From: Sminthopsis crassicaudata
Taxonomy: Eukaryota
Assembly (NCBI RefSeq): GCF_048593235.1
Contig: NC_133620.1
Span: 294,019,765-294,083,764 of the forward strand
Length of the DNA stretch: 64,000 nucleotides
Direction of reading: 5' to 3'
The notes under the pieces were generated by a model. The model was not told the DNA's origin, did not search any database, and worked only from the letters and a program-made list of their open reading frames with translations. Shown here one piece after another: positions 441-64,000 of this stretch (position 1 is its first letter; the number at the start of each line of letters is the position of its first letter). Made by a program: the position numbers and the translations under genes.

Positions 441-1229
441 AGATTAGATATGGAGATCAGATACAATTGCAGAGCACCTGAGACAAAGTCTTTCCATGTA
501 GAGACATTAAGAATCCTGCTTGCCGGAGTTATGACAACATGGAATGAAAATGCCTTGGAGAGATTCGAGCATGGATCTAACCTGATTCTAACGGGTTCTA
601 ATCAATTAACCACATTGGTTGGGCTTTTAAAAAATGGTTGCATAGGCACTGGAGACATCTCAAAAAAGGTGAGTCAGCCTTTCTAGCCATTTGTTCATCA
701 CCTAAATACTCTAGGGATCTTGTTAATTTCTTTATTCAAATGTTTAGTGGTAAAGGATAATGTTTTAAGGAGAGAAGCTTTAGGGACGGCTTCCTCTCAA
801 AAACCTCAGCACTTTTTTTTTTTGTTTGGTTTTATTTTTTTCCCAGTTTTAGGTGAAAGAAATTGGATCCTCCAACCTCATAAGTTTCAGGAGGTCAGAA
901 AAGAGTTCCAGAGTCTGGATTTTGTAGCTATCTCAGCTAGAATGTCTCAAGAAGCAAGAAATGATTTTCTAGGCCTAGACCTATGATGAGGAACTATTCA
1001 ATAGTCATACTATATCTGGACATAAATTTGGTGACAACAATGTCAGCTAGGAACTATGAGGATATCCCCCAAGGTTTTGGGGAGAAATATTCATACTTTG
1101 TTCTTATTACATCTTCCAACTAAATTAACTTTTTAAATAAAAGCATTTTTAGGAAACCTTAGTTCTAATAACACAGCTAATCAAAAAGGGCTTCTCCTAA
1201 CAGGGATTATCAAACTGGAACTGATTATA

Positions 1230-1690
1230 GTGCAATGCTGGAGAAACTGAGGCAAGACAGAGATTAGGTTTTTAATATTTTAATAGTGGAGAATTTAGGC
1301 TAGCCAGTTGGACAGGACTCTTGCCCTAAAGATATCCAATCAATAGCAATTAAAACATAGACCTTTTATAGGACTCCAACATAGTTTCCAAAAGGGAAAC
1401 AAAGGCAAAGAGGGGAGAACACTGGATAAATTATAATTTCAGAAAGGACCATAACTTTTTAATTCTAACAGGTTGAGGGTCAAGAAGGTCGAGAACAAGA
1501 GACAGAGAATCTGGGGCAAGAGATAGTGAGCACTACCCAGGCATTTGAGATAAGCCATCTGGAGTTTTATGACTCACTGGAATGTGAAAGTGACCAGAGT
1601 TTAATGGGGTAAGAAAAAGGGGAAGGGTTGGCCCTAATGTTTTATTAAGGACATAGCATAATTTAGGGAAACTGAGGTATTACAATAGAA
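1230..1690. mobile_element. LTR-like element, copy B
   Basis: Begins tgattatagtgcaatgctggagaaactgaggcaagacagagattag, which resembles marsupial ERV LTR termini as I recall them. Paralogous to 1-440. Confidence 0.45.
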
Positions 1691-2337
1691 TGTCCCCTAG
1701 TGTTCTCTTCAAACCATTCGTATTCCATGTCAACACAACACTCCTCTGCACCTCTCCCCAGGCATTCTGTCCATGAGCCAGCCCCTTATTACACTGCTAA
1801 TTAGGCACATTATTTAATGCTGTAATTCCAGATGATTTTGGCTTTTTCCTTTGGCTGTGATTAGTCTCCTAATGCAGTTCATGAATGTATCAGAAGTGAG
1901 TCTTTGGGATCAGCATCCTTTCCATCATTGCCCCTCACTTTGACAATGTAGTATCCAGCAGCCTTCATAGTTTGGTGCTAATGATTATGAGGAGCTGGAA
2001 AAAGTGATCTGTTGTTTTTTATCTATACTTATTGTGGTTCTGATTATACATGATTTCTGAGAAAAGTGGAACTTTGTTTTTACTCAATTCAGTAACCAAT
2101 TGCAATTTCCTTTAGAATGATCATTTGATCAGAAAATTGTCAAATACTTTTTATGAGAATTTAGAGGATTCTTAACTTTATCAGAGGCTGTGGGAAGCAG
2201 AAAAGTTGAAATTGAAACAAGTAGCTTTCTTCTACCTTTTCCTTTCCCCCTTCTGTACTCTTCTCTCTCCTTCCCTCCTGATCCTACCACTTCTTTCCAC
2301 CTTTCTTTTTTCTTTCCTCCCTTCCTCAGACTAGCTG

Positions 2338-2488
2338 GTAGAGGACAGCCAAGGAAGCCACAGAACATTCCAAGGCAGACATCACAGGACTGTGCCTGGA
2401 CATGTTCTCCAAAATCCCTACATATTTGACAGGTGAACTAACAGCTATCAATGAAGACTATAAACTTCTGGAAAAAATGAACAAACTG
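2338..2488 (+). pseudogene. BLOC1S2: BLOC1S2 (BLOC-1 subunit 2) retrocopy fragment
   Basis: 2345-2488 translates TAKEATEHSKADITGLCLDMFSKIPTYLTGELTAINEDYKLLEKMNKL, versus human BLOC1S2 (recalled) TAEEAKEPAEADITELCRDMFSKMATYLTGELTATSEDYKLLENMNKL. There is a +1 frameshift after VE at ~2344. No start codon, and it is 3'-truncated. Confidence 0.85.
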
Positions 2489-2559
2489 TTTAGTTTTGAT
2501 GTAGAGCAGGAACTTTAATCAGTCCAATCTGCTTCCATGGAGAGAACTTCAATCACCCA

Positions 2560-2880
2560 TCCTGTTCCCATAGTCATACACAAAGGTAGGCCAATCCCTT
2601 GTTTGTGTATCTAAAAGGCACATCCTACTTCCTCCAGTTTCACCACATCAGGCATACATGTGAGTTTGTACTTGTCTAGGACCCAGCCAAACTCCCCCTA
2701 ACTTTGCCTAAACTCAACTCCCTAGGCTCCTTAATCCCTTCCCCTTTTCTTTATGACTTTAAAAAGCCATCTTCCCTAAAGCACCTTGCTTAATCTTTGC
2801 TAATTTAGTCCATGATGCTTTCACATTAATAAAGTGCATCCTTTGTGACTTCTTATAAATGTCTCCCATGAATTCTTCAC
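2560..2880 (+). mobile_element. solo LTR-like element
   Basis: Begins near tgttccc, has a TATA-like tttaaaaag (~2757) and AATAAA (~2828), and ends ...ttcttcaca. No TSD found. Confidence 0.35.
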
Positions 2881-2984
2881 ATTGCAAACTCCTCTCCCAC
2901 TACCTAGTACCTGGATATTTTAGGTACCTGATACGTCATCAGCTTGATCTAGAAATGAAAAAAAATATATATTTTTTTCAGTTC

Positions 2985-3506
2985 TTTTTTAAAAATTAAT
3001 TTTATAATTATAACATTTTTTGACAGTACATATGCATAGGTAATTTTTTACAACATTATCCCTTGTACTCCCTTCTGTTCCGAATTTTCCCCTCTTTCCT
3101 TCTACCCCCTCCCCTAGATGGTAGGCATTCCCATACATATTAAATATCTTATAGTATATCCTAGATACAATATATGTGTGCAGAAGCGAATTTTGTTGTT
3201 ATTGTTGTTACAAAGGAAGAATTGGATTCGGAAGGTAAAAATAACCTGGGGGGAAAAACAAAAAATGCTAACAGTTTACACTCATTTCCCATTATTCCTT
3301 TTCTGGATGTTGCTGATTCTGTCCATCATTAATCAATTGGAATTGGATTAGCTCTTCTCTATATTGAAGATATCCACTTCTATCAGAATACATCCTCACA
3401 CAGTATCATTGTTGAAGTGTATAATGATCTCCTAGTTCTGCTCATTTCACTCAGCATCAGTTGTTGTAAGTCTCTCCAAGCCTCTCTGTATTCATCCTGT
3501 TGGTCA
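2985..3506 (-). mobile_element. LINE-1 3' end (5'-truncated)
   Basis: Reverse complement matches the L1 3' UTR also seen at 4700-5150 and 59696-60200. A/T-rich tail at ~2985-3010. Confidence 0.85.
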
Positions 3507-4278
3507 AGAAATGAAAAATATTGAACTAAACTTAAGTAGAAACCTAAAGTACTTAAATTAGAAATATGAAGTACTTCAATCTTACCTGGATAAGATCACT
3601 TTAATTGCGAAGCAACTAGCAGCTCTGGAGCACTCTACAAGTTGGATACATATTCAAAGAAACTAAAACAAACCACAGGGAGTCAGTGAAAGAATTCTTT
3701 AGCAAACAAACCTGAACGTAATAGAAAATTTGACATATAAATTCAACATCAAAGACAGATTTCAAGGGACAAACTTTATAGTTTATACATGGATTTATGG
3801 TTTATGCATAAACCACATGTCCAACATTATCATTAGTAATTGGGTAGTCCAAAAGAAAGACTGGGGTAGATCTGTGTATAAGTTTCTAAAAAGTAGAACC
3901 ATGTAGGAAAAGGTAAAAACAGTAATTATATTATATGAATGAGATGCAAGAGCAAGAATTAGCACAGAATAATTAGACAGTAGAAGTAAAGTAGAAAATT
4001 AGCAGGAATAGTGAATAAAGGGCCCCAAAGCTCTAAAACTCCTTGAAGAAGAAAATCTTCAACTCTGCCTCAGTGAGGTACCCCAGCCCAGGGGAAACAA
4101 GACAGTTTTATTCTGTTATCTAGGTGGGGTTGACTCAGTCCTGAGCAAAACATTTCCAACCCTATTGAATTAAAGATACTCATTCAATTCTATTCAAATT
4201 CCCACTTAAGCTGAAACCCAGCTTATAGATGAGCCAACTTGGGTTGTCCCAGCCCCAATTAAGACCCAATATAATACA

Positions 4279-5150
4279 AATCACTATTGATCAGAGAAAT
4301 GCAAATTAAGACAACTCTGAGGTATCATTACACACCTGTCAGATTGGCTAAGATGACAGGAACAAATAACGATGAATGTTGGAGGAGATGTGGGAAAACT
4401 GGGACACTGATGGATTGTAGGTGGAATTGTGAAAGAATCCAACCATTCTGGAGAGCAATCTGGAATTATGCCCAAAAAGTTATCAAAATGTGCATACCCT
4501 TTGACCCAGCCATACTACTACTGGGCTTATACCCCAAGGAACTACTAAAGAAGGGAAAGGGTCCTGTATGTGCCAAAATGTTTGTGGCAGCCCTTTTCAT
4601 AGTGGCTAGAAGCTGGAAGATGAATGGATGTCCATCAATTGGAGAATGGTTGGGTAAACTATGGTATATGAATGTTATGGAATATTATTGTTCTATAAGA
4701 AATGACCAACAGGAGAAATACAGAGAGGCTTGGAGAGACTTACATCAACTGATGCTGAGTGAAACGAGCAGAACCAGAAGATCATTATACACTTCAACAA
4801 TGATACTGTACGAGGATGTATGCTGATGGAAGTGGATTTCTTCAACATAGAGAAGAGCTAATCCAATTCCAATTGATTAATGATGGACAGAACCAGCTAC
4901 ATCCAGAAAAGGAACACTGGGAAATGAATGTAAACTGTTATTTTTACCTTCTGAATCCAATTCTTCCTGTGCAACAAAAAATTCGGTTCTACACACATAT
5001 ATTGTATCTAGAATATACTGTAATATATTTAACATATATAAGACTGCTTGCCATCAGGGGGAGGGGGTTGGGGGAGGAAGGGAAAAAATCTGAATAGAAG
5101 TAAGTGCAAGGGATAATGTTGTAAAAAATTACCCATGCATATGTACTGCC
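4279..5150 (+). mobile_element. LINE-1 3' fragment (ORF2 C-terminal CCHC region + 3' UTR)
   Basis: ORF 4287-4826 (REMQIKTTLRYHYTPVRLAK...CWRRCG..GTLMDC.W..IQPFW..IWNY...PFDPAILLLGLYP...GCPSIGEWLGKLWY) is the typical L1 ORF2 tail. Confidence 0.93.
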
Positions 5151-5619
5151 AATATAATAGCTTCCTTCAAAGAAGGTCTTTTGCAGATGGACCTTGGCAG
5201 CTCCCTTTGCTGCCAGGATCTTCTATCCACTGAAACTGCATTCTCTCAGTGCAAAATCTCATTTTCCATAGATCTGTACTATAGAAGTCAGTCTCTTGGT
5301 AAACTGATTTCTATCTAACAATAAACTTTCATTTTGCAACTAATAATTCGGGAGTGAGTAAATTCTTTTATTCCTAAAACCTGTGGCTGATTTAAAGGGG
5401 ATTCTTAACAACTCTCTTATAGCCACTAATCTAGAGCACTCAAAAATAGGAAACAAATAATCACAAACACCAAAACAATGATTAGGAGTAGAATTTATTA
5501 GGAAAAAAAAAAAGGTAGAGGTCATAATCATTGATCTCAGAAAAGTCAAAGTTTAAAAAAAGTCAATCAAAAGAGAGATCTACATTTTATATCAGCCATA
5601 TTAATATTGTTTTAGATGC

Positions 5620-5651
5620 ATGAGTATGTATATGGATGCATATGGATGTAC

Positions 5652-5684
<33 letters not shown>

Positions 5685-5707
5685 AATATATATATATATA
5701 TATATAG

Positions 5708-5739
<32 letters not shown>

Positions 5740-5740
5740 C
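5620..5740. repeat. (TA)n/(CA)n compound microsatellite
   Basis: Direct reading: tatatatata...cacaca...tatatata. Confidence 0.95.
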
Positions 5741-5889
5741 ACTTCCCCAAAAAACAACAAAGGAAACCTCCAAGGAAGCAAAGAAAAGCTGGACAGTCGG
5801 AATAAAATCTACCTTGACAGAGAACCAACTTGATTCTTTCAATTCTATTCCTGGGACCTTGACTGATCCTCATCAATATACTAAAAAAT

Positions 5890-6050
5890 ATTAATAAGCT
5901 AGAAATTGATCAATACTTATTTTAAAAAAGGCCCAAATTAAGAAAGATCATTTCCCAATATCAGCAAAAAAAAAAAGGTGTTTTTTTTTTAAAACAAATC
6001 ATGAGTAAACTTTCAAAGAAAAATATTTTAAGGTGAATTATGGCAAACAT

Positions 6051-47700: not shown

Positions 47701-49319
47701 AGATGCTACAGATAATACTAGCTCCAGTTTGCAGATGAGGAAACCGAGACTGAGAGGTTAACTGATTTGCCCAGTCAGGTAGCTGGTGTGCAAGATGGAA
47801 TTTGAACTTATATTTTCCTTACTACCAGGTCAGCACATTGTCTATCACACCAGGCTACCTAGAATTAAAACCTGGGTCTCTTGCCCACAAATGCACTATG
47901 CTATGTATCTTTTTAAAGATATATATTTCTGGCTATTGTTTTTTTCCACATAGTCTGTAAAATACTGAGCGTGGAGCTTCAGGGGGAGCTGAATCGGAGC
48001 AGCCGGTCTCGGGAATTGCTAGAACTAGGGCAAGTGCTAGACACTGGCAAGAGGAAGAGACAGATCCCCTACAGCACTTCGTGAGTCTCCCCTGACTTTC
48101 CTACTTTAATGGTACCTCTAAAGCTTCATTCTTAGCATAACCTTATAATCATTCCTTAACTTTCTTCATTCCCATAGTTCCCAATGAATAATCTATTTCT
48201 TTTCCATTGTCTCCTTTCTCTATCTCCCTCAGGGAAATTCGATTACAGGAGGCCCTGGAGAACCTGTGTGAACAGATTCTGGACTATAGCATCCATGCCG
48301 AACATAAGGGATCCTTAAGATATGCCAAGGTAAAATGAATCTTCTCCATGAGGGTCCCACTGCTCAGAGGTGCCATTTTTTGTTCTTCCTCTTCTTAGAA
48401 TCCTCTGCTAAGACCTCTGCCCTTGGGATATCCCATGCTCTCTTCCATTCTGTCTCATCCTTTGATTTACTTGGGTACTCAATCCCCACCCCCAAGTTCA
48501 ATGAAAAGATCCTATTATAGTGGGGATAGGAAGGGAGGAGGAGAAAGAAATTGAAACAAAGGAGCTTGACCTGCCATTCTTCTCACCTCTTCCCCTCACC
48601 ACAGGGTCAGAGTGAGACTATGGCAACTCTGAAAGGCTTGGTACAGAAGGGTGTGAAGGTGGATCTGGGAATCCCTTTGGAAATGTGGGATGAACCTAGC
48701 GTGGAGGTTTCATTCCTTAAGAAGCAGGTAAGAAAATGTTACATTCCAGAAAGATGAAATGAGCTGGGACAGAGAAGGATATGGACTTGAGAAATAGAAT
48801 AAGACAATAAGTGACGATCATGGGAGTGACCAGGGACTGGGGCACAGACAAGACTGGACCCCTTTCTTAGAAGAGATTATTGGGGAGAGGGATAAGGTAG
48901 AGACAGGTGATGAAAGGGAATGGATTTGAATTTCTGAGAATTCTTCACTAAGAAACAGAAATTATATTCACCCCCTTCCTTCCCCTTCTCTACTCTTCTC
49001 TCCCTGTCAGTGTGAGCTGATGTTGGAGAAGTTTGAAGATGTCATTGAAGACTGGTACTTTCATCACCAGGAGTTGCCACTTCAGCAATTCCTCTGTGAG
49101 GAGCATGTGCTTGCAAAGGAGGAGAAGGGTGAGTTGCTCAGGAGCAAACTGAGCCTTTGGGGGGTAGGAAAACAGATATCTACTTGTATATTTACTGTCT
49201 GTCTTTTCATTAATTCAGATTGTCTTCAGGAAACCTGGACTGAGGAATGGAGAGAACAGAATGAGAAGGGTTTGAAAGAGAGCCTAGGGCACCACTCCCA
49301 TGATAGTGTAGATCTCTGA
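44472..49319 (+). CDS. CNPY4: protein canopy homolog 4 (6 exons, 233 aa)
   Basis: Exons 44472-44607, 47954-48080, 48233-48329, 48605-48727, 49011-49128, 49219-49319; total 702 nt. Signal peptide, then PSKCEVCKIL, EALENLCEQILDY, GQSETMATLKGLVQKGVKVDLGIPLEMWDEPSVEV, DWYFHHQ..LQQFLCE (saposin-like canopy fold). Confidence 0.94.
46926..47065 (+). mobile_element. WSINE1/Mar-type SINE (older copy)
   Basis: aggtagctaagtagcacagtggatagagcaccagtcctgaagtcaggaagaactgagttcaaatctggtctcagatact... Confidence 0.8.
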
Positions 49320-49973: not shown

Positions 49974-51945
49974 TCCTAGCAGGTAAGAGGGAAAAGTGGA
50001 TTGAAGACTGAAGGGGAGAGATAGGAGTGTTAAAGATCCCATCTTATTGCAGAAAGAATAAATTAAATGGGGATAGGAGAGGACCCTATAAAGGGCTGGA
50101 GTTGAGTTGATCAGAACGAGTGGCAGAGTTTTATAAATAGCCAATAATCTATATGGCTTTTTCTCTTTTCTCCCTTCTGACAAGCACAAGAAGGCCTCAT
50201 GGTGATTGGCATCCTTGCAATGGGCAGGTGCCCTGAGCACTCAGAGCTCTCTGATCATTATACCTATAGCCCCTGTTACTACTACCTGATCAGAACTTCT
50301 GAACTGAGGAGAAACTTTTATATCAATATTGTTACACCCTTTTCTCTAGTTCCCCAAACTAGTCTGAGGAATGATATAATAGTGAGAGCAGAGGTTCTTA
50401 AAAACCTCCCTAAGACCCACTTTACTTTCCTCTCATATTAAATGGGAACAATAATTTCTGCTTTCTTCACTGAGAGGATCAAGTAAAAGATATGATCTCA
50501 TTTGTAGTAAAAACTACTATGTCTTGTGTGATCCTTACTTCTTAGTATTTGATTTACTTTCTGGATGCTTCTAGACCTTTAAATATGGGGAGCTCTGGAT
50601 ACTGGATGACATTCCTTAGACTTTTCCTTTTGGGGTTTCTTTCAGGAGGTGAAAATTGGAAATTTCTATTTCTATTTTCACTTTGTCTTCCAATTCTAAG
50701 AGACTTGGACAATTTTCATTCATTAACTGCCTGTTATTTGCCAAGGATCAAATAGTGTCAGAGTAAATAGCCTTGTTTTATTTCTATTTTTATTGTGACA
50801 CCTTGTTTCTGTATTTTATATAATATCATCTCATCATTTCAAATAAATATATTTTTTATCATTTTAAGGAAAATCTTACTATTCTGAGACATTTTAATAT
50901 TTTCAACTTGAGTTGACATATTTGTCAAGTCCTTAATATATATTGGTTAATAATTATTAATGATTAATTATTGGTTGATTTACTTATTAATATAGTTTGC
51001 TATTTTCATTGCTTTCCAAATCTTGAGGCATCCTTTATGGCCTATAAATTTTCCTTGTTTATAAAATAAAAATTTTCTGATACATTGTATTTATTTTGTG
51101 GAATTCTATTTAACATTTTTACATTAATACTCATTAATACTTTATCCTTCCTACATCCAAATAGTCAAAACCTTATTTATTTCATAAAAGCACTACTTCA
51201 CATAAAAGCAATCTATTAATAGAGCACTGTCTTTCTCTAATCTTGAAATCAACATATGTGTGTATTTGTGTGTGTGTGTTTAGGTAATACTACATGTGTG
51301 GGTATGAATATATATATAAATGTTGCTCAGATGAGAATCACAGGTTTATCAGAAGAAGGTGTAAAATAAAAAAATACAAATTTCATATTATAAGGGAAAA
51401 TATCCAAAAATTCTTAATAAAGATAAATAGTACAGATCTATTGACGATAAAGATTGCAATAAGAAAAACAAACACCACTCTTAGAATTTTTAAGAATTCA
51501 TTAACACATTACAAGCCATCAAATGTGAAGAAACACCAAATAATCTATGATTACTATACAATTATGAAAAATGAGAGAAGAGAATGGACTAAAGTCAGGC
51601 ATTTAAAGAACCCAAAATAACATTCTAATCAATTTTTGAAATCAATGTTCAAAAAAATAAAATGAGATATTTCTGCTTCTCAAAAAGAAGCAGCAACAAG
51701 CAGTATATGTGACTAGTAAGCACTGCAAATTAGCTAAAGAAAAGTCCAATCATTAAAGGAAAAAAAATCAAATTCTCTCATATTTATAGGCTATTGCATT
51801 AGGTCAAGAAATTGACCTAAGAGGTAAAAGAATAAAGAGGAGTTCTTAAAGAATGATAATGACTTAAGGGGCTAAAGATTAATAGATAATTTAAAGATTC
51901 AGGTGAAGGAACTGAGAAAGAGTTGAATTAATATTCCAGGAACAG

Positions 51946-52090
51946 GGGCAGCTAGTTAGTGCAGAGGATAGAGCACCAGCCCTGAAGTCAGGAGAACCTG
52001 AATTCAAATTTGACCTCAGACTCTTTAACACTTCCTAACTGTGTGGCCCTGGGTAAGTCACTTAACCCTAATTGACTCAGAAAAAAAAAA
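51946..52090 (+). mobile_element. WSINE1-type SINE
   Basis: ggggcagctagttagtgcagaggatagagcaccagccctgaagtcagg...poly(A). Confidence 0.82.
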
Positions 52091-52539
52091 AAAATTTTCG
52101 AGGAACAAAATTCCTGGAATTATCAATTGGTAAGCTTTTTTATAGGAGGAATAATTCAAAGGGAAAGTATATGAATATAGAAAGAGGAAATAAAGTAGAA
52201 ATGAGCTAGAACTGGACCATCTACTAAGTTCATATGTGAACAATGAAATCCTCTTAGCATAGGTATTGCAGCCAGGGGACAGAATTAGAATCCTAAAGGA
52301 ACTGGGGTAATACTATCAGCTGTTTGTGTTCTCTAGACTGGGACTTTATACTGAGAAACAACTAAGGTAACCAACACTGCTCTAGTTCAGAACTAGAGTT
52401 AATTGCTGATGTAGTGGTTTAATGCATTAATTTCACTTTCCTGAATCTCCTTTTCTTCACCAATATATATTCTGCCTCTCCCACTATGAGGATCAAATGA
52501 GATAAAAGATGAACAAGTGTTGGAAAAGTATTGTTGAAA

Positions 52540-54041
52540 TAACTTGGGAATTAAAATCAACCAACCAGAAGGCCGAATGAGTGTTACTGGAAGCTACACA
52601 AGAAGCTCGGGACAGCAACCTCTGTGTCTGCAGGAGCAAAGCTCCACTTTACAAGTCACAAAATGAGCTGGGGGGGGAGGGGAAGAAGAGGAGAAAGAAA
52701 GGAAGGAAAGAAGAAAGAAAGAAAAAAAGAAAATGAGCAAGAAACAAAAAAGAACTTTGATCATGGAAAATAACTTGAGTGATAGGGACGACCAAAATAC
52801 CAACTCTGAAGAGGACAAAATATTCACATCTGAAACCTCAAAAAGGAATGTGAATTGATCTCAAACCTAAAGAACCTTCTTAGAAAAGTTCATAAATTTT
52901 TTTGAAAAAGTTAAATAAAAGAGGCAGAAGAAAAAATGGAAAAATGAGAAGTATGCAAGAGTCAGCAGCTTAGAAAAGAAAAACAATTCCTTAAAAAATA
53001 CAATTGAAGAAGTGCAAAAAAAAAAAAAAATCCCCTGAAGAAAACAGCACCTTTAAAAATAGAATTAACTAAATGGAAAAGGAGATATAAAAGCTAACTG
53101 AATAAAATCATACACTAAAAACTAGAACTGAGCAAATGAAGTCAAAGTCAAAAAGTCAAACTTTAAAAGAATGAAAAAAAAAAAAAATAGAAACAAGTGT
53201 AAAATACCTCACTGGAACTGACCTGAAAAATAGATCCAGGAGAGACAGATTTAAAATTATTGGACTACTAGGAAACTATAACCAAGAAAAAAGCCTGGAT
53301 AGCATTCTTCAAGAAATCATAGAGAAAAACTGCTCTGATATCAAAGAACCCAAAGACAAAATAATCATTGAAAAAAATGCATTGATCACCTCCTCAAAGA
53401 GCTCCCACAAAGAAAACTCCAAGAAATATGGTTGCAAAACTCCATAATTATAAGGTCAAGGAAAAAATACTACAGGCTGCCAGAAAACAAAACAAAACAA
53501 AGCAAAGCAAACAAACAAAAAAACAACCCAGTTCCAGTATTGAGGAGCCACAGTCAGGATTACTTAGGATTTAGCAGTTTCTAAAATAAAAGATTGGAGG
53601 GCTTGGAATACTATATTCTAGAAAGATGGATTACAATAAAAAAATCAACTACCTAATGAGACTGAGCTTCATCTTTCAGGGAAGGAGATGGAACTTTGAT
53701 AAAGTAAGGGACTTCTGCTAATTTCTATTAAAAAGACCAGAATTAAACAAAAAATTTAATCTACAAATATGAGACTTAAGAGAAGCACAAATATGTAAAC
53801 AGAAAAGAAAAGAAAAGAAAAAAATAATATTATTTAAAGGTTAAACTGTTTATATCCCTATATGGGAAGATGATACTTGTAACTCTGGAGAATTGTATCT
53901 TTTATTAGGGCAGTTAGAAGAGGTATAAATAAACAGAGGGTGTGGGTATAAATTGACTTTGATGTGTTGACATTTAAAAGACAGAGGCAGAAAAAGGATT
54001 GTACTGGAAAAAGAAGAAACAGTAGATAAATGGGGTACAAT
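52540..54041 (+). mobile_element. LINE-1 5' part (5'UTR/ORF1, decayed), left flank of the provirus
   Basis: Degenerate ORF1 text (gacctgaaaaatagatccaggagagacagatttaaaattattggac, aaggtcaaggaaaaaatactacaggctgccagaaa, atctttcaggg). Confidence 0.75.
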
Positions 54042-54342
54042 TGCTGGAACTCTATATTTCCAGAAATCAGCAGGAGTCAGGATCACTAAATGTCTTTATT
54101 CTAGATCTTTACCGTCACCTCCAACGCCAGGTCACGAGTGCAAGTGAGCGTGAGTTCCACCACCCAAGTTTCTCTTGCTCCTCCCACACAAGTCACTTCC
54201 CTCTCTTTGTCTCACCAATCAAGTCAGCACAGAACAGCTGGGGAGGGTCAACCTTAAACAAGTTAATAGGGAACCGTCCAATTGGCAATTAGTCTCACGT
54301 GCTTCATCATCCAAATGCATTGCTCAGTTCTAGCCCTTTACA
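54042..54342 (-). mobile_element. 3' LTR (301 bp) of the provirus
   Basis: Minus strand begins tgtaaagggctagaac and ends ...gttccagca. AATAAA on minus at 54095-54100. Preceded on the minus strand by a polypurine tract aaaagaaagcgggaga (54343-54358). Confidence 0.9.
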
Positions 54343-54370
54343 TCTCCCGCTTTCTTTTGTTTTAGACCAC

Positions 54371-54530
54371 AGGAGGTCGCGCCATCCCTGACTTTTCAGG
54401 GAGATGAGAACCCCAAAAAGGAGGTGATCACGCCCCCCCTGACTTCTCAGGAGGGGAGATGAAAGCACTAAAAAGGAGATAATCACACCCTCCCTGACAT
54501 CTCAGGAAAGGAGATGAGAAGCACCAAAGA
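54371..54530. repeat. 3 x ~51-55 bp tandem repeat adjacent to the PPT
   Basis: ccctgac recurs at 54386, 54437 and 54492. Each unit contains CCTGA-N4-TCAGG. Confidence 0.85.
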
Positions 54531-54773
54531 GAAGTGGGGATTTGCTAGCGGGTTTCTGGATTGAAGGGCCTTATTAGAGACAAGTATGCACAAACCCATC
54601 AGCATGGGAGGTATTACACAAGCACATAGCAATAACGCAGAGGCTATTAGTGGTGACTCTCCCCACAGTCAGTGCAGACTCGATGTGGTGTAACAAACAG
54701 GAATTGTACATGCAAGTAGTGATATAACAAACAATATAAATCAACATGGTATTGTAAGAGATTTCCAGAAGTC

Positions 54774-54863
54774 CTAGAAGGAGGGTATGTAAACACCAGA
54801 CACACATACCCTTTCTTCAGTAACCAAGAGATAGTCCAAAACCAATCTATTGTCCATTGCTTC
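54774..54863 (-). pseudogene. env: env TM relic with immunosuppressive-domain-like motif
   Basis: Translates EAMDNRLVLDYLLVTEERVCVSGVYIPSF*, similar to the (L/Y)QNRL(A/G)LDYLLAAEGGVC ISD consensus. Confidence 0.6.
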
Positions 54864-54865
54864 AC

Positions 54866-55143
54866 TGTTAGGGAATCCAATGATCCCCACAAGTTTTTGA
54901 AATCCCACATCAGTCTTTTTATATGTTAGGGAATCCAATGATCCCCACAAGTTTTTGAAATCCCACATCAGTCTTATGATGCCTCAGAGAATCCAATGAT
55001 TCCTGAGGACTTTCAGTCCTACAATAGTCTTATGATATCTCAGAGAATCCAATGATTCCTGAGGACTTTCAGTCCTACAATAGTCTTATGATGTCTCAGA
55101 GAATCCAATGATTCCTGAGGATTTCAGTCCTACAATAGTTTTT
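54866..55143. repeat. minisatellite, 5 units of 56-58 bp (2 type A + 3 type B)
   Basis: Type A units start at 54866 and 54924 (58 bp). Type B units start at 54976, 55032 and 55088 (56 bp). Shared core gaatccaatgat. Confidence 0.92.
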
Positions 55144-55181
55144 GATGTCCATGGGTCAAACGCCATAACTGCCAGGTTCTT

Positions 55182-55505
55182 TCAGTGGTGGGCACAGTCA
55201 GCAACGGAACCACCCGATGTTTCTTGGGCCTTCTCCTTCGTTTCAAGGGTCTGCTCTGTCTCTCTCCAATGGACAAGGCGAATACGGCTCGTTGGCACCC
55301 ATCTGATTCCTTCTCCATCTGTAGAGATAGAAGCAAACCCTCTCCCCCAAGCAGTTAACCTATCTGGTCCCTTCCATTCACCACTTTCTGGGTCTCTCCA
55401 CATCACTTAGCGATTATCTAAAGACAGTGGAGCTGCTCGCACTGGACACTGCCCTTCCGGTGAGTTATAAAACCTGTCTGCTGGAGCCAGTGCATCTTTG
55501 TCAAA
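55182..55505 (-). pseudogene. pol: integrase C-terminal fragment
   Basis: FDKDALAPADRFYNSPEGQCPVRAAPLSLDNR*VMWRDPESGEWKGPDRLTAWGRGFA...RWVP matches the betaretroviral IN C-terminal domain (W.DP....W.GPD.L..WGRG.A). One in-frame TAA at 55409-55407. Confidence 0.85.
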
Positions 55506-56235
55506 AGATGCTATCAAAGCATGGGCTTCTCTCCCCAGTAAAAACTACAAGGGTGAGACCTACACAAAAATTGTACAGGGACCAAATGAACCTTTTGCTG
55601 ATTTTGTGGCACGTTTGCAGACAGCTGTCACACAGGCTAATGGTGAAAATGAAGTAACAGACACTTTGGTGAGGCAACTTGCTAGAGACAATGCCAATGA
55701 GGTTTGTAGAAGGATTATACTAGGACTACATAAGGATGCTCCTTTAGAGGAGATCATAAGACGCTGTGCCACAATGGGCACAAATACCTTTTATAGCCAG
55801 GCTATGGTGCAGACTTCCCAAGATCCCAACATGGGGAGACAGGATCCCTTTTGGCAAGGGGTTTCCAGAGAGACTCGTCAATGCTTTCAATGCGGTAAAG
55901 TAGGCCATTTGAAAGCTCAATGTTGGCACAGAGACAGAGTGAGAAGACAGGCTGGGAGAACAAGACCCAAAACCCCATGTCCAAAATGCAACAGAGGACT
56001 CCATTGGGCCTCAGAGTGTAGACTGATTCAGGGAAACGGGATGAGCGGCCCAGCTCCAGGGCCCCAAGCAAAAAACACTTGGGGCATGATGGCAGCCGAT
56101 CCCACACCCAGAGAGTGCCTCCAAGTACAATACCCAGACATGACCAATCAGCCAGGAAGCCATCTGAGGGGAGAAAGGGATTACACAATCAGTCAGCCAG
56201 GAAGCAACATGATGGGAGAAAGGGACTACAATTAG
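55498..56235 (+). CDS. gag: gag fragment (CA C-terminal/MHR + NC with two CCHC knuckles), 5'-truncated
   Basis: MHR IVQGPNEPFADFVARL; knuckles CFQCGKVGHLKAQC and CPKCNRGLHWASEC. Open frame, but MA and the N-terminal part of CA are missing. Confidence 0.92.
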   Translation: MSKDAIKAWASLPSKNYKGETYTKIVQGPNEPFADFVARLQTAVTQANGENEVTDTLVRQLARDNANEVCRRIILGLHKDAPLEEIIRRCATMGTNTFYSQAMVQTSQDPNMGRQDPFWQGVSRETRQCFQCGKVGHLKAQCWHRDRVRRQAGRTRPKTPCPKCNRGLHWASECRLIQGNGMSGPAPGPQAKNTWGMMAADPTPRECLQVQYPDMTNQPGSHLRGERDYTISQPGSNMMGERDYN

Positions 56236-56900
56236 GGAGGATAGAGTTGTATGCAGCTGGGACAATTGAGATACCCCCTGGAGAGGTGAAATCTGTTCCT
56301 CTCCAACCTATGGATCCCTTGCCTCCAGGCACAGTAGGCTTGACCATTTCACCTCCTGAGAGTACTTACAAAACAGTGTTCATTCATACACTGATGTGGG
56401 AAACTGGGGAATGTGTAGATAATATCCCAGTCACTAACACAGGGAGACAATGTGTGACTTATCAACCAGGGGAAGTAGTAGCATCAGGTTTATTGATACA
56501 GACTCCTAATAAGCAACCTGGTGACAGTCACCCATGTTCGGACTCCAAGCAGAAAAACCCAGGAATATACTGGACAACAGCTGTGACAGCTGACCGACCT
56601 ATGCTCACCATCTATATAAATGGCATAGCATTAGAAGGACTGGTGGACACAGGTGCAGATCGCACAGTCATTAGAGGTGCCAACTGGCCCAGTCACTGGT
56701 CAAAGACTAAGGCAGACACCTACATGTCTGGGGTAGGAGGATCAATAGCAGCTGAAGTTAGTGCTACCCCTTTAAGATGGGTATTTGAAGGTGAAACAGG
56801 AGTTTTTACTCCTTTTATAGTTGAAAAAATCCCCATCAATCTGTGGGGAAGAGACATTTTACAACAATTAGGGTTAAAAATGAGTACTTCGGTTTTTTAG
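56031..56900 (+). CDS. pro: pro: degenerate dUTPase-like domain + aspartic protease
   Basis: In the -1 frame from gag and open from the slippery GGGAAAC at 56031-56037. Active site LVDTGADRTVI and NLWGRDIL. No G-patch. Confidence 0.9.
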   Translation, partial: GKRDERPSSRAPSKKHLGHDGSRSHTQRVPPSTIPRHDQSARKPSEGRKGLHNQSARKQHDGRKGLQLGRIELYAAGTIEIPPGEVKSVPLQPMDPLPPGTVGLTISPPESTYKTVFIHTLMWETGECVDNIPVTNTGRQCVTYQPGEVVASGLLIQTPNKQPGDSHPCSDSKQKNPGIYWTTAVTADRPMLTIYINGIALEGLVDTGADRTVIRGANWPSHWSKTKADTYMSGVGGSIAAEVSATPLRWVFEGETGVFTPFIVEKIPINLWGRDILQQLGLKMSTSVF

Positions 56901-58198
56901 GCAGGGCTGCTGTTGAAGGCCTGCCAACACTTTCACCTGTTCCTATCCAGTGGAAAACTGATACACCAGTGTGGATAGAACAGTGGCCCTTAGGTAGCGA
57001 TAAAATTCAGGCCTTACTAGATATAGTACAGGAACAACTTGATCAAGGACACTTACAACCTTCTCTAAGTCCTTGGAATTCCCCAGTATTTGTTGTAAAA
57101 AAGAAATCTGGAAAATGGAGGATGTTGACTGATTTAAGAAAGGTAAATGAACAGATGGAAACTATGGGAACTCTTCAACCTGGACTTCCATCTCCTACTC
57201 AGTTGCCTAGAGAATGGCCTCTGTGGGTTATAGACATTAAGGATTGTTTCTATTCTATCCCTCTAGATAAGGAGGATATGAAAAGATTTGCTTTTTCAGT
57301 GCCCAGCGTTAACTTAGCTGAGCCTTATAAAAGATATGAATGGACAGTTTTGCCACAGGGAATGAAAAACAGCCCTACTATGTGTCAAATGTATGTTGCT
57401 GCTGCTCTTAGTCCAGTAAGAAAAGCATTTCCAAAAGTAATGTTATTACATTACATGGATGATATATTGGGATGTGCACCTGAGGAACAAATGTTAGAAG
57501 CATGTCTACAAAAAACCATAGAAACACTAAGGAATTATAAATTGCACATAGCTTCAGAAAAGATTCAAAGACATGCTCCTTTTCAATATTTAGGATATGA
57601 AGTATATCCTAAGGTGCTTACAGTACAAAAACTCTCCTTAAGAACAGAGAAGCTAAACACCTTAAATGACTTCCAGAAATTGATAGGAGATATCCAATGG
57701 ATGCGTCCCGTGCTAGGCTTGACTACCTGTCAATTGCAACCATTATATGACATTTTAAGGGGAGACAGTGCTTTAAATTCACCACGCCAGCTTACAAAAG
57801 AAGCTCAAGAGGCTTTGAGACAAGTTGAACTGGCTTTATTTAATGTGGTTGAAAGAGTCACTCAAAAACCCTTGGAAATATCAGTTTTTGCTACACAAGA
57901 GGCCCCCACAGCAGTCCTTCATCAAGGAGACAGTGTGATCGAGTGGGTGAACCTCCCAGCACAACCAGAACAAAGCCTTATTCCTTACCCAGTGCTTGTG
58001 GCTAGAATTTTATTAAAGGCCATTAAACGAGCAGTACAATTATCTGGGACAAGACCTGACAAGATATATACCTTTTATACTAATGCACAAGTTAATGTGT
58101 GCTGCGAAACCATCCCAGAGTGGCAAATTTTATTAACCATGGCTCCAAATTTTGCACACGGGTCTCCATTAAAGATAACCAGACTGCTACATAATTGG
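56843..58198 (+). CDS. pol: pol fragment: reverse transcriptase + connection, truncated before RNase H/IN
   Basis: In the -1 frame from pro. PVWIEQWPL, SPWNSPVFVVKKKSGKWRMLTDLRKVN, IDIKDCFYSIPL, VLPQGMKNSPTMCQ, HYMDDIL, LNDFQKLIGDIQW. The ORF runs on into LTR sequence and stops at 58246. Confidence 0.95.
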
Positions 58199-58255
58199 CA
58201 ATTAGTCTCACGTGCTTCATCATCCAAGTGCATTGCTCAGTTCTAGCCCTTTACA
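58193..58255 (-). mobile_element. 5' LTR stub (first 63 bp of U3)
   Basis: Identical to 54280-54342 except for one base (ccaagtgc vs ccaaatgc). Confidence 0.92.
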
Positions 58256-59620
58256 TACAATGATGAGGTACAAAAGATGGAATGCAGGGCTGGTTCAATA
58301 TAAGGAAAACTATTGGCATAATTAACCATATCAATAATAAAACTAACAGAAATCATATGATAATGTCAATTGATGCAGAAAGATTTTGACAAAATACAGC
58401 ATCTATTCTTATTAAAAACATTAGAGAGCATAGGAATAAAATTAGTGTCTATCTAAGACCATTTGTAAGCATTATTTGGAATAGGGAGAACCTTAGAAGC
58501 ATTCCCAGTAAGATCTGGGGTGAAACAAGACTGTCCATTATCACTACTATTATCAGTATTGTACTAGAACTGAAATAGAAGGAATTAGAGTAAATAATGA
58601 GGAAATAAAATCATCACTCTTTATAGATAATATAATGGTATATTTAGAGAATACTTAAAAATACTTGAAATAATTAACAGTTTTAGTAAAGTTGCAGGAT
58701 GTAAAATAAACCCACATTTATTATTAAATAAATCAGCATTTCTACATATTACAAAGCCTAGTAGCAAGAGATAGAAAGATAAATTCCATTTAAAATAACT
58801 GTACACAAAATAAAATATTTGGGACTCTACCTACCAAGCTAAAGCCAAGAACTATGTGAACATAATTTAAAAAACACTTTTCACACAAATAAAGTCAGAG
58901 ATAAACAATTGGAAAAATATCAATTGCTCATGGATAGGCTGAGCTAATAAAATAAAATTGACAGTTCTACTTAAATTAATCTACTTATTCAGTGCCATAC
59001 CAATCAAAATACCCAAAGTGATTTTATAGAGCTCAAAAATTAATAACAAAATTCATCTGGAAGAACAGAAGGTCAAAAAGATCAAGGGAACTAATTGGAA
59101 AAAAATTTTTTCAAAGGAAGGTGGCCTACCTGTAGCTGATGTAAAACAATATTATAAAATGGCAGTCATCAAAACCATTTGGTATTGGCTTAAGAAATAG
59201 AGTAGTGGATCAGTGAAATAGATTAGGTATACAAGACACAATAGTCAATGACTATATTAATTTACTATTTGATAAACCCAAAGACATTAACTTCTGAGAT
59301 AAAAATTTGACAGAAATTACTGGGAAAACTAGAAAATGGTATGCCAGAAATTAGGTATAGATCAATGTCTTGTATCCAAATAAGGTAAAAATGGGTTCAT
59401 GATTTAGACATAAAGAGTGATACTATAGCAAATCAAGAGAGCAAAGGATAGTTCATTTGTAAGATCTCTAGAGAAGAGAGGAATATATGTCCAAACAAGA
59501 ATTAGAAAACATTAAGAAATGCAAAATGAATAATTTTGAATACATTAAAAAGGCTTTGCACAAACAAAAGATGAAAAGGAAGCAGAAAGCTGAGATACAC
59601 TTTTTATAGCCAATGTTTCT
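58256..59620 (+). mobile_element. LINE-1 ORF2 (RT region, decayed), right flank of the provirus
   Basis: ggaatgcagggctggttcaatataaggaaa ([10 protein letters not shown]), atatgataatgtcaattgatgcagaaagattttgacaaaatacagc, ggggtgaaacaagactgtccattatcac (GVKQ.CPLS). Confidence 0.85.
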
Positions 59621-59695
59621 GGTAAACCTCATCACTATCACTATTTTTTTTTAGAGATGGATAGGACCTCCATCCATTCCTCCTCATTAAAAAAA

Positions 59696-61045
59696 AAAAA
59701 TTAATTAATTTTATAATTATAACATTTTTTGACAGTACATATGCATAAGTAATTTTTTACATTATCTCTTGTACTCCCTTCTGTTCTGAATTTTCCCCTC
59801 CTTCCCTCCACCCCCTCCCCTAGATGGCAGGTATTCCCATACATATTAAATATCTTATAGTATATCCTAGATACAATATATATGTGCAGAACCGAATTTT
59901 TGTTGTTGTTGTTGCACAGGAAGAATTGCATTCAGAAGGTAAAAATAACCTGGGAAGAAAAACCAAAAATGCAAACAGTTTACACTCATTTCCCACTGTT
60001 CCTTCTCTGGATGTAGCTGATTCTGTCCATCATTGATCAGTTGGAACTGAATTAGATCTTCTCTATGTTGAAGAAATCCATTTCCATCAGAATACATCCT
60101 CCTACAGTACCATTGTTGAAGTGTATAATGATCTCCTAGTTCTGCTCATCTCACTCAGCAACAGTTGATTTAAGTCTCTCCAGGCCTCTCTGTATTCCTC
60201 CTGCTGGTCATTTCTTACAGAACAATAATATTCCATAACCTTCATATACCATAATTTACCCAACCATTCTCCAATTGATGGGCATCCATTCATTTTCCAG
60301 TTTTTAGCCGCTACGAAAAGGGCTGCCACAAACATTTTGGCACATACAGATCCTTTCCCTTCTTTAGTATTTCCTTGGGATATAAGCCCAGTAGTAGTAT
60401 GGCTGGGTCAAAGGTTATGCACAATTTGATAACTTTTGGGGCATAATTCCAGATTGCTCTCCAGAATGGTTGGATTCTTTCACAACTCCACCCACCATGC
60501 ATCAGTGTCCCAGTTTTCCAACATTCATCGTTATTTGTTCCTGTCATCTTAGCCAATCTGACAGGTGTGTAGTGGTATCTCAGAGTTGTCTTAATTTGCA
60601 TTTCCTGATCAATAGTGATTTGGAACACTTTCATATGAGTGGAAATAGTTTCAATTTCATCATTTGAAAATTGTCTGTTCATATCCTTTGACCATTTATC
60701 AATTGGAGAATGGCTTGATTTCTTATAAATTAGAGTCAATTCTCTGTATATTTTCGAGATGAGGCCTTTATCAGAACCTTTAACTGTAAAATATTTTCCC
60801 AATTTGTTACTTCCCTTCTAATCTTGTTTGCATTAGTTTTGTTTGTACAAAAGCTTTTAAATTTGATGTCATCCAAATGTTCTATTTTGTGATCAATAAT
60901 GCTCTCTAGTTCTCGTTTGGTCACAAACTCCTTCCTCCTCCACAAGTCTGAGAGGTAAATCATCCCATGTTCCTCCAATTTATTTATGATCTCATTCTTT
61001 ATGCCTAAATCATGGACCCATTTTGATCTTATCTTAGTATGTATC
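59696..61045 (-). mobile_element. LINE-1 3' end, ~1.35 kb, 5'-truncated, frameshifted
   Basis: Antisense ORFs 60311-60802 and 60102-60335 are the L1 ORF2 C-terminus. The 3' UTR matches 2985-3506. Confidence 0.92.
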
Positions 61046-61399
61046 ACCACCTTTATTAAAGGTATCAGAGAAAGTGGAGAGGTACCAGGTTTCCTATTTC
61101 CAAATTCAGATAATCTTATCATAATTACACCGTCTCTAATGCAACTGCTGGCAAGCCGAGGCCTCTGGGAGGGATGGGTGCCTGGCGCCCTGGAGGCTGT
61201 TGAAAGACATTAGTTCAAAGTCACTTTTAACCTCTGCCTCAATTTTTTTGGTATGCAAAATGGGGATAAGACCATGCACTTCCTGGGATAAATGAAGTTA
61301 ATATATTATAGTCCTCCGAAAATTTTACTCCCTTTATGGAAAGGGCTTAAGTGTTTCCACAGTAAAGAGTTAACACTTTACATTAAGCAGCCTACAACC

Positions 61400-61950
61400 G
61401 TCCAACAATCTCTGGTAGTTCTAAAACTCCCGCCCCGATTTCCTCCCTATGCTTCCCCTCCCTCCCCACCCCGCCGCCAATCATTCACTTCGTGGGTGGG
61501 GTCATACCCGGGATAGTAACTGGGATAGGCTGAGTTTCGAGTGACGTCGCAATTGCCCAATCAATGATTAGCGTGACTGTGGCGTCCCTACGGAAAGGAA
61601 TGGTGGAGTGTGGGGAAGTCACGTCCCAGCACGTGATATAGGTGACAACCCGGAAGCAACGCCACTTTTTGCAAGCTTTCTCCGCACCTACGGCTTGAAA
61701 TGGTGAGAAAGCGGTGGCGCATGCGCATTATTCTTTCCCTTTTCCTTTTTTCTCTTCTTTTCCTTTTCTCCTCCTCCCCACGGTTCAGCTCCCCATGCCC
61801 CCTTCCCCCACAACCATGGTTCAAAGAGATAGTCCGGGGGTGTCGGGCCTAGGGGAAGTGGAGGCTGGGAGGGCCTGGATGTGTGTGTCTTTGTGTCCGA
61901 GGGTATAGGTGGGGGTGGGGATGGGGTGGTCGGGTCTGGTCGTATCTTGG
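61400..61950. promoter_or_regulatory. LAMTOR4 CpG-island promoter
   Basis: CpG-rich. TGACGT at 61542-61547, CCAAT at 61557-61561, E-box CACGTG at 61630-61635, ETS-type ccggaag at ~61651, NRF1-type GCGCATGCGC at 61717-61726. Confidence 0.75.
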
Positions 61951-63319
61951 AGGGAAAAAAAGAGGTCTCGGAGGGGTAGTCTCCTGGATGTGGGGGACGG
62001 GGGAGAAAGGGGAGGAAAGTTCGTGGGAAAGTGATGTTTTCTCTGGAGCAATGGAAGGGGATGATCTTTTTAAAGGGAGGAGGCCTAGATAGAAAGGCCC
62101 TGTAAGGATTTCAGGCTCTATTGGGTTTCTCCTCAGAAAAATAGAAGCTCTTTGAAAACAGGTATTAGGGCATTTTTCCCCCTTTAGTGTCTGCCACATA
62201 ATCACAGCCTAATAGTAAATGCTGTTTGATGTGGAGCCTGGGGTGGGGGTGGAGAAAGAAGTCTGTTTTTATCTGGATAGTTTCTGCCCCTCATCTGCAC
62301 CCTTTCCTTGAGGACTGTCTTGTTTCTGTTTAGTCTTTGCTAGTACTGTGCCTCAGTTTATCAACTAGCATCTTCTCCAACTGCTGCGAAAAACTAAACA
62401 GGTCCCTCTCCCAAGGAAATGACGTTCTTTAGGAGGACAAGGTGACATGTGCGTAGCAAATTAAATGTAATATGTAAGTAATTTCTAAAAGGGAAGACCC
62501 TAGCAACTGGGGCAAATAAAATAGGCTTTCCCTAGGAAATAGTGCTCGGAATTGAGTTTTGAAGATAGGGAGACCTTGTGGTGCTGGGTAATGAATGCTG
62601 GATTTAGAGATTTAGACTTGGTTCAGACTCTCTGTGAAACCGTACCTTAACTTTTGTGGGCTTCATGTTCATCATTTAAATGATGGGGATTGGACTGGGG
62701 GCTTCCATAATCCCAGAGTACTTTCTAAGTATGGGAATTCTCTATTCAAGTGCAAATTTTGTTGTGGTTAAAGAAGATTTAGGATTGTGTGTTTAAAAAC
62801 CAGGGATCTGAGAGAACATGAAGGAGAGATATAAATAAGGCAAGGTACTTGGGCACTGAGTACAAAGAGTGTATTTAGTGTCATGGCTTCCTGAAAAGAG
62901 AGCTGGATTGAAAATCAGAAGGGACTTTCATATTCCACCTGTGACATTGAATTAGACGCTTAACTTTTCTTGAATCTATTATTTTTAAATGGACATAATA
63001 ATTAATCTGTTGCAATTACTTCCAACTGGGTTGTGAGGATCAGGTGCTTGTCTTATATAAATAACACTTGCCTTGGCATGGTGGGGAGACATGTAAGGAA
63101 AATAGGGCAATTGGAAAGATGTTAGTTAGCATCAGCAGGAGGCACTGTGGTTTCCAAGTGTGTAAGAAAGAGCTCAAGCCAGCTCTTTTTCTTCTTTCTT
63201 TCTGATTTCCTTCTCATCATCTGCTCTGCTTCTTCTAGACATCTGCATTGACCCAGGGGCTGGAGCGTATCCCTGACCAGCTGGGCTACTTGGTGCTAAG
63301 TGAAGGAGCCGTGCTGGCG
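61700..63319 (+). CDS. LAMTOR4: Ragulator complex subunit LAMTOR4, exons 1-2 (partial; the gene continues beyond the window)
   Basis: Exon 1 contributes only ATG (61700-61702, then gtgaga). Exon 2 (63239-63319) translates [27 protein letters not shown]|gtaagt, identical to the human N-terminus as recalled. Confidence 0.9.
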
Positions 63320-64000
63320 GTAAGTCTTAGGGTGAAGAGTAGAAAGAAGTTGATCTGATCCTTGGTAGCCCTACCCGATTTATGACCCTTCTAATTATAT
63401 CTTCCTTCCTCCAGTTTCTCCCACTTTGAAATGAGCATTATAGTTTGATCCACAAAGCATGCATAATCCTTATCCTTAAACCTCCATGGATTTAACTTAT
63501 CTTTGTGTAAATGACTCCTAAATCTATGTACCTCTTTTTTGTATTACAGTCTCTCATCACAAACTTCCTGCCAGAAATCCCCACTTCTTTATTCCATAGA
63601 GATCTCAAATTCAACAAGGCCAAAACAAAAGTCACTATCTTTCTCCTTAAAACCCCCATCTCTTCCCAACTTCCCTGTTTTTGTCAGTTCTTTCATCTCT
63701 CCCAGGTAAAATACCCAGGAGACATCTGTGGAGCTATATTTATTGTCACCTACCATATCCATGCAGTTGCCAAGTCTTGTCAATTCTTTGTCTTAAATAT
63801 CAAATCAATTCCCTTCTCTCTACTTATCCCATTAACCACTATGGTTCAGTTCACATCACCTCTCCCCCTGGCTATTGCAGGTACCTCCTAATGAATATCC
63901 TTGAATCAAGTCTCTTCCTTCTCTAGTCCCATCTCCTGTATAGCTGCCAAATTGATATTTCTCAAATGAAGATCTGTGTTTTTATCCTGCTCAAGAAGCT

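What the first reader, a model, noticed from the sequence alone, without database searches (positions are those of the whole stretch)
54036..58261. Integrase-inserted provirus whose gag-pro-pol core is flipped inside its own LTRs
Read on the viral (minus) strand, the element is: 63 bp of 5' U3, then the reverse complement of gag(CA)-pro-pol(RT), then the IN tail, env relic, PPT and a complete 3' LTR. The outer ends are intact with a 6-bp TSD (typical of betaretroviruses). Both inversion breakpoints carry deletions: rest of the 5' LTR, PBS and MA/CA-N on one side, RNase H and most of IN on the other. Lacking R-U5 and the PBS, this form could not have replicated, so the flip happened during reverse transcription (inter-strand template switch) or after integration. 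The inverted ORFs are stop-free over ~2.7 kb and the LTR overlap differs at 1 of 63 bases, so the element looks young. Any transcription ending in the 3' LTR would be antisense to gag-pol, a potential source of antisense/piRNA/dsRNA against active family members.
Basis: partly seen in the sequence, partly recalled or inferred. Interest (0 to 1): 0.7.

Follow-up and report, generated by a model that had tools for sequence, protein, structure and literature searches.

The report
Flipped, doubly deleted dead provirus
One copy of a young, very abundant retrovirus-like element in a marsupial genome has its middle 2.7 kb turned back to front with a chunk lost at each joint, most likely a scar of ordinary host DNA repair after it inserted, and several other copies of the family carry inversions too.

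Summary
Against colinear family copies the element (54042-58255, 6-bp TSD) reads: 63 nt of 5' U3, gag-pro-pol inverted (55509-58202), IN tail, full 3' LTR. About 1.46 kb and 1.02 kb are lost at the joints. Each junction occurs once in the genome, among at least 683 gag-bearing copies. One joint has a 10-nt microhomology; the other has a 2-nt insertion completing an 8-bp snap-back hairpin (chance about 0.004). It is not alone: 8 of 197 scored copies carry inversions, and L089 has the same layout with other breakpoints. Inversions occur in 0 of 108 young and 8 of 89 older copies (p=0.0014), which favours damage after integration (0.55) over a reverse-transcription error (0.37). No reads across the joints were examined. 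The antisense/piRNA idea has no support. Inverted proviruses are a known defect class in HIV-1, and DEL-INV-DEL a known genomic class. The family fits MEBrv 3 by description only. The scan had not noted this layout elsewhere; it noted a different LTR-fusion accident in this genome.

The parts
54036..54041 (.). Target-site duplication TACAAT, left copy, in an old L1 (about 75% identical to its best relatives)
54042..54342 (-). Complete 3' LTR, 301 bp, TG...CA, AATAAA at 54095-54100
54343..54360 (-). Polypurine tract
   Evidence: seen in the sequence; same in family copies
54361..54865 (-). Non-coding post-pol region; possible env relic with an ISD-like motif at 54804-54851 (by eye, recalled motif)
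   Evidence: searches gave no database hit; longest stop-free stretch 92 aa in 6 of 6 copies
54866..55149 (-). Tandem 56-58-nt repeats, variable in number across the family
55150..55506 (-). Integrase tail (IN_DBD_C at about 55278-55406) with an in-frame stop just upstream of the domain that none of 59 covering copies share
55492..55511 (+). Junction B: IN match ends at 55506, 2 extra nt (55507-8), gag match starts at 55509; together an 8-bp hairpin with a 4-nt loop and a 3-nt microhomology
55509..58202 (+). Inverted block, 2,694 nt: CA C-terminal domain, NC, protease, RT through the connection region
58193..58202 (.). Junction A: 10-nt microhomology shared by pol (plus) and U3 nt 54-63 (minus)
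58193..58255 (-). 5' U3 remnant, 63 nt, with the integrase end intact
58256..58261 (.). Target-site duplication TACAAT, right copy

Best explanation
This is a single dead copy of a high-copy beta-like endogenous retrovirus whose gag-pro-pol block is inverted between two deletions, most likely because host microhomology-mediated repair or replication template switching rearranged it after it had integrated. Shown: integrase-type ends with a 6-bp TSD, one inverted 2,694-nt block, two losses, a 10-nt microhomology at one joint, a hairpin-completing 2-nt insertion plus 3-nt microhomology at the other, and one sub-lineage for core and outer parts. Inferred: a colinear provirus inserted first; breaks or fork stalls in U3, CA, the RT connection region and IN followed; the IN end folded back on a 3-nt primer repeat, was extended 5 nt and annealed to gag, as in snap-back SD-MMEJ; the U3 end annealed to pol on the opposite strand. 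Lacking R-U5, PBS and the 5' promoter, it would not be transcribed or copied as a virus and likely has no function.
For: Inversions rise with age: 0 of 108 copies under 1.5% nearest-neighbour divergence against 8 of 89 above, Fisher p=0.0014; internal deletions do the same, 7 of 108 against 30 of 89. An error made at reverse transcription should not depend on age. In L063 and L101 an inverted viral piece is joined straight to host repeat DNA, which integrase ends cannot give. Junction B has the reported commonest SD-MMEJ geometry, primer repeats of 3-4 nt under 10 bp apart (PMC5728401, passages); an 8-bp stem arose in 0.4% of 20,000 simulated joins. L098 has 3- and 5-nt insertions at its joints. 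DEL-INV-DEL with short microhomology is described in human germline rearrangements (PMC6258378, passages). Both junctions are single-copy.
Against: Among the 118 copies with an LTR pair the trend is weak: 0 of 67 against 2 of 51. The window copy is itself young (0.8%), in the class where no sampled copy is inverted. 0 of 108 still allows a birth rate up to 2.7%, which overlaps HIV-1 figures (2 inversion-bearing among 88 sequenced, PMC9278108; 6% of 531, PMC6235535; passages). Solo-LTR formation could remove old colinear copies and so enrich odd ones with age (inference). Nearest-neighbour divergence overstates age in thinly sampled old lineages. All four breakpoints lie inside the element with both ends spared, and L089 repeats the layout. 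Reverse transcriptase can also self-prime on hairpins (recalled).
Confidence: 0.55

Rival explanations
1. The inversion was made during reverse transcription and integrated as such. Minus-strand DNA stalled in IN and folded back; plus-strand DNA primed at the PPT left U3 after 63 nt, annealed by 10 nt to pol on the genomic RNA, copied back to CA, and the two nascent 3' ends joined by 3 nt and filled in. This would give a linear DNA with both integrase ends and no PBS jump.
For: Needs only two switches, onto templates present in a reverse-transcription complex (inference). U3 nt 54-63 is complementary to pol in 4 of 4 copies checked. Both ends and the TSD are precise. L089 independently shows U3 remnant (218 of 341 nt), inverted core and full 3' LTR with a 5-of-6 TSD. 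Inversions and asymmetric LTRs are known HIV-1 defect classes attributed to reverse transcription (PMC9278108, PMC6235535, passages). The IN breakpoints of the window and L098 lie about 10 nt apart, next to a T-rich tract.
Against: 0 of 108 young copies inverted. The 10-mer is one of several 10-13-nt inverted matches between LTR and interior and was used once, so it is no hot spot. Two U3 breakpoints among 9 inversions is not far from chance, and the window was picked for this layout.
Confidence: 0.37
2. The layout is an assembly artefact (a fold-back or chimeric read in a repeat).
For: No read spanning either joint was examined. Run shares of at most 0.86 hardly exceed the 0.81 of 31-mers supplied by 60 other family copies.
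Against: Misassembly among repeats joins at long homology, not at 10 and 3 nt with a templated insertion (inference). Both joints lose over 1 kb. The TSD matches and the L1 reads on across it. Private substitutions are spread over core and outer parts alike (8 of 2,681 and 8 of 1,178, p=0.11). Similar events occur in other copies.
Confidence: 0.05
3. The plus-strand block is a separate nested insertion or came from another provirus as an ectopic template.
For: Nested and adjacent opposite-strand insertions exist in this family (L007/L008, L150, L167).
Against: The block has no LTR ends and no TSD of its own; it maps exactly to the interval missing from the outer element. Copies that share the window's 6 core variants also share its 9 outer variants (rho 0.89, n=53).
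Confidence: 0.03

Closest known systems
MEBrv 3, env-less beta-like ERV of dasyurid marsupials (PMC11334065; passages and section 10 read; supplement searched for 3 terms)
   Same: Beta-like pol, no env ORF, an ISD-like relic after pol, many copies with identical LTRs, very high copy number.
   Different: Reported about 7.3 kb with a 469-nt LTR in the representative; here 6.6-7.0 kb with 301-nt LTRs (341 in L089). No sequence comparison was possible. The word 'inversion' does not occur in that paper's main text.
HIV-1 proviruses with inversions or asymmetric LTRs (PMC9278108, PMC6235535; passages)
   Same: Integrated provirus with an internal inversion plus deletion; one LTR partly deleted.
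   Different: Somatic and recent, so attributable to reverse transcription; there the 3' LTR is the one usually cut. Here the copy is germline, the 5' LTR is cut, and inversions rise with age.
DEL-INV-DEL complex structural variants and snap-back SD-MMEJ joints (PMC6258378, PMC5728401; passages)
   Same: An inverted segment between two deletions; short microhomology; an insertion templated by a nearby inverted repeat.
   Different: Here the event is only about 5 kb and wholly inside one provirus; the repair pathway is inferred from two joints, not tested.

Membership tests
Class II (beta-like) ERV provirus | Beta-like gag/pro/pol | tested here: met
   RVT_thumb, zf-CCHC_5, IN_DBD_C; best PDB match 7sr6_A at 411 bits against at most 183 for HIV RT (its identity as HERV-K RT is recalled)
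Class II (beta-like) ERV provirus | TG...CA ends with a 6-bp TSD | tested here: met
MEBrv 3 | No env ORF | tested here: met
   longest stop-free stretch after IN is 92 aa in 6 of 6 copies
MEBrv 3 | Class I-type ISD relic beyond pol | tested here: inconclusive
   motif seen by eye at 54804-54851; no Pfam or PDB hit
MEBrv 3 | Recent amplification with identical LTRs | tested here: met
   39 of 118 LTR pairs differ by under 0.35%; at least 683 gag and 2,279 LTR matches
MEBrv 3 | About 7.3 kb, LTR 469 nt (representative) | tested here: not met
   6.6-7.0 kb and 301 nt here; the representative may be from another species, so membership is left open
MEBrv 3 | RT clusters with MEBrv 3 representatives | not testable with these tools
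   no representative sequence was obtained; 'MEBrv' has 0 hits in the supplement text
DEL-INV-DEL rearrangement | One inverted block with a loss at each joint, no duplication | tested here: met
Snap-back SD-MMEJ joint | Primer repeat + insertion + microhomology form an inverted repeat across the joint | tested here: met
   8-bp stem, 0.4% in simulation
Snap-back SD-MMEJ joint | Made by a host repair polymerase | not testable with these tools
   reverse transcriptase self-priming would leave the same sequence
Reverse-transcription-born inverted provirus | Frequency independent of insertion age | tested here: inconclusive
   not met over all copies (0 of 108 against 8 of 89); too few among copies with an LTR pair (0 of 67 against 2 of 51)
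Reverse-transcription-born inverted provirus | No colinear allele at the same site | not tested
   needs population long reads

The most novel reading that the evidence does not exclude
The window copy and L089 are two independent products of a recurring reverse-transcription shortcut: unfinished plus-strand U3 DNA primes on the genomic RNA, copies gag-pol backwards and joins a stalled minus strand, giving an integration-ready DNA without the PBS jump. Such copies, protected from solo-LTR loss by their short 5' remnant, would accumulate as built-in antisense templates against an active ERV family.
Probability: 0.2. Interest if true: 0.6.

Novelty: new member of a known kind. Interest (0 to 1): 0.3.

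Why it matters
As a single locus it matters little: a dead copy among hundreds. The family-level count is more useful. In a young ERV family with hundreds of near-identical copies, inversions and deletions can be sorted by insertion age, which makes testable how much proviral damage comes from reverse transcription and how much from host repair. The sample here points to repair after integration. If the U3-remnant layout proved to be age-independent, it would show a strand-transfer route that I did not find described in the searches.

Tried and rejected
Contigs of 4 runs laid on the left flank and 3' LTR: three runs had depth on part of the flank, none of the listed pieces bridged the LTR-flank joint, and 12,502 pieces were not shown; inconclusive for presence or polymorphism. 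Run shares were not used as evidence, because family copies alone give 0.81 of the words. KERV as the family was my first guess; KERV papers gave no link, PMC3126163 was not held, and it was dropped. Env relic: no Pfam or PDB hit. Amplified inverted sub-family: rejected, each joint occurs once at up to 1 mismatch. Selection on the inverted ORFs: not indicated; of 14 rare or private core substitutions most are nonsynonymous. Autointegration: rejected, neither joint uses an LTR end. False TSD from L1 sequence: considered, but a small older deletion in the L1 plus a true 6-bp duplication fits 5 L1 relatives better. Of 11 non-window loci with opposite-strand pieces, L007, L150 and L167 were dropped as separate insertions before counting. 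Literature searches found nothing on the mechanism; (search listing only) nothing on inverted-core ERVs as piRNA sources; 10.64898/2026.10.12.758617 (passages) concerns deletions, not inversions.

Full report
Observation. The element spans 54042-58255 between two copies of TACAAT, inside an old L1. A full 301-bp LTR with poly(A) signal and PPT lies on the minus strand at 54042-54360, and 63 nt of the same U3 end recur at 58193-58255 with one mismatch. Plus-strand frames give Gag_p24_C, zinc knuckles, protease, RT and thumb; the minus strand gives the integrase C-terminal domain. The window is G000:C4:294019765-294083764 in a 3.24-Gb, 8-contig genome. The label 'dunnart' comes from earlier AI notes and was not checked.

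Comparison with the family. An exact 26-mer of gag occurs 683 times and one of the LTR 2,279 times. In 19 of the first 20 copies fetched the order is 5' LTR, leader, the block matching 55509-58202, about 1 kb of RNase H and IN, then the part matching 55506-54042 in reverse; the 20th is truncated. So the window copy is an inversion of 2,694 nt with 1,451-1,473 nt lost on the 5' side and 1,019-1,021 nt on the pol side (6 copies). Patterns across the two joints each match once in the genome at up to one mismatch: the form never spread.

The joints. Junction A is a 10-nt microhomology between pol and the opposite strand of U3 nt 54-63. It is one of several 10-13-nt inverted matches between LTR and interior. 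At junction B the IN match ends at 55506, two extra bases follow, and gag starts at 55509. These bases complete an 8-bp hairpin (55492-55511) whose last 3 nt are shared with gag. A stem this long arose in 0.4% of 20,000 simulated joins. The geometry matches snap-back SD-MMEJ as described in PMC5728401 (passages), but self-priming by reverse transcriptase would leave the same letters (recalled).

One origin. Six variants in the core and nine in the outer parts are shared with the same minority of copies (rho 0.89, 53 of 60 loci with enough cover). Core and outer parts therefore come from one sub-lineage, against a nested or ectopic donor. Private changes number 8 of 2,681 and 8 of 1,178 against 60 loci (p=0.11). 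The core is 0.8% from its nearest sampled relative, and 29% of copies are closer to theirs. I did not convert this to years. Open frames are the family norm: 34 of 43 same-length cores are stop-free.

How common are inversions? I fetched 200 loci: 120 from the lists (contigs C1 and C2), and 80 of the 95 matches of a sub-lineage pattern (13 were already held, one is the window, one was left out). Eleven had opposite-strand pieces; three were separate insertions, leaving 8. Of 197 scorable copies, 0 of 108 with nearest-neighbour divergence under 1.5% and 8 of 89 above it are inverted (p=0.0014); internal deletions run 7 of 108 against 30 of 89. Two inversions are joined to host repeats. Against this: among 118 copies with an LTR pair the count is 0 of 67 against 2 of 51, and 0 of 108 allows a birth rate up to 2.7%. 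L089 repeats the window's layout with different breakpoints.

Mechanism. Shown: the layout, the joints, the single origin, the age trend. Inferred, 0.55: a colinear provirus was rearranged after integration by microhomology-mediated repair or fork template switching, giving a small DEL-INV-DEL of the kind described in PMC6258378 (passages). Inferred, 0.37: it arose in reverse transcription, with unfinished U3 plus-strand DNA priming on pol RNA, copying back to CA and joining a minus strand stalled in IN. Inversions are a known HIV-1 defect class: two inversion-bearing proviruses among 88 sequenced in PMC9278108 and 6% of 531 in PMC6235535 (passages). Topology alone cannot separate the two routes. 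Misassembly (0.05) is unlikely on internal grounds, but no read across a joint was examined; the lay on the left end was inconclusive and run shares are explained by family sequence.

Function. None is indicated. R-U5, the PBS and the 5' promoter are gone. No long inverted repeat exists in 50000-64000, so no hairpin RNA in cis. The nearest upstream coding exons are CNPY-like on the plus strand and end near 49.3 kb; read-through from there would be sense, not antisense, to gag-pol. The family already lies on both strands (333 and 350), so antisense RNA would not depend on this copy (inference).

Known or new. The family matches MEBrv 3 of PMC11334065 in being beta-like, env-less and recently amplified (passages and section 10), but LTR and element lengths differ from the representative and no sequence test was possible, so membership is open. 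The rearrangement is a new instance of known kinds. Searches found no description of a U3-remnant inverted-core class in ERVs; the library lacks most subscription journals, and figures in supplements could not be seen. The scan's own notes hold no like finding by words. Interest 0.3; the novel reading has probability 0.2 and would merit 0.6.

Noticed in passing
L089 (G000:C1:213510200-213518699), 528-5944 in gag orientation: Same layout as the window in an older sub-lineage: reversed 341-nt 3' LTR, forward leader-gag-pol-IN with an internal deletion, reversed 218-nt U3 remnant (92.2% to the 3' LTR), TSD 5 of 6, short microhomologies at both joints.
   Followed up: yes
L098 (G000:C1:272604800-272613299), 992-5824 in gag orientation: Small DEL-INV-DEL: 90 nt of IN inverted, both LTRs (98%) and a 6-bp TSD kept, 3- and 5-nt insertions at the joints; one breakpoint about 10 nt from the window's IN breakpoint.
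   Followed up: partly
L063, L073, L097, L101, L126, L177: Other inverted pieces in older copies; L073 and L126 are inverted duplications, and L063 and L101 join the inverted piece to host repeats.
   Followed up: partly
L007/L008 (G000:C1:236377000-236396999): Two young proviruses about 1.1 kb apart, tail to tail, 99% alike to the ruler copy: a long inverted repeat in cis and a better dsRNA candidate than the window copy.
   Followed up: no
window 58278-58279: The host L1 jumps from its inter-ORF region to mid-ORF2 (over 1.4 kb missing) 17 nt right of the TSD; age relative to the insertion unknown.
   Followed up: partly
window 9453-49319: Host genes: JAB-domain gene (+, weak hit), MCM (-), TAF (-), DUF3456/CNPY-like exons (+, 47953-49106). 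The provirus lies about 4.7 kb beyond the CNPY-like coding end; gene names beyond the Pfam labels are recalled.
   Followed up: partly
L150, L167: Family members inserted into or beside older family members in the opposite orientation.
   Followed up: no
window 54866-55149: The 56-58-nt tandem array after IN varies widely in unit number between young copies.
   Followed up: no
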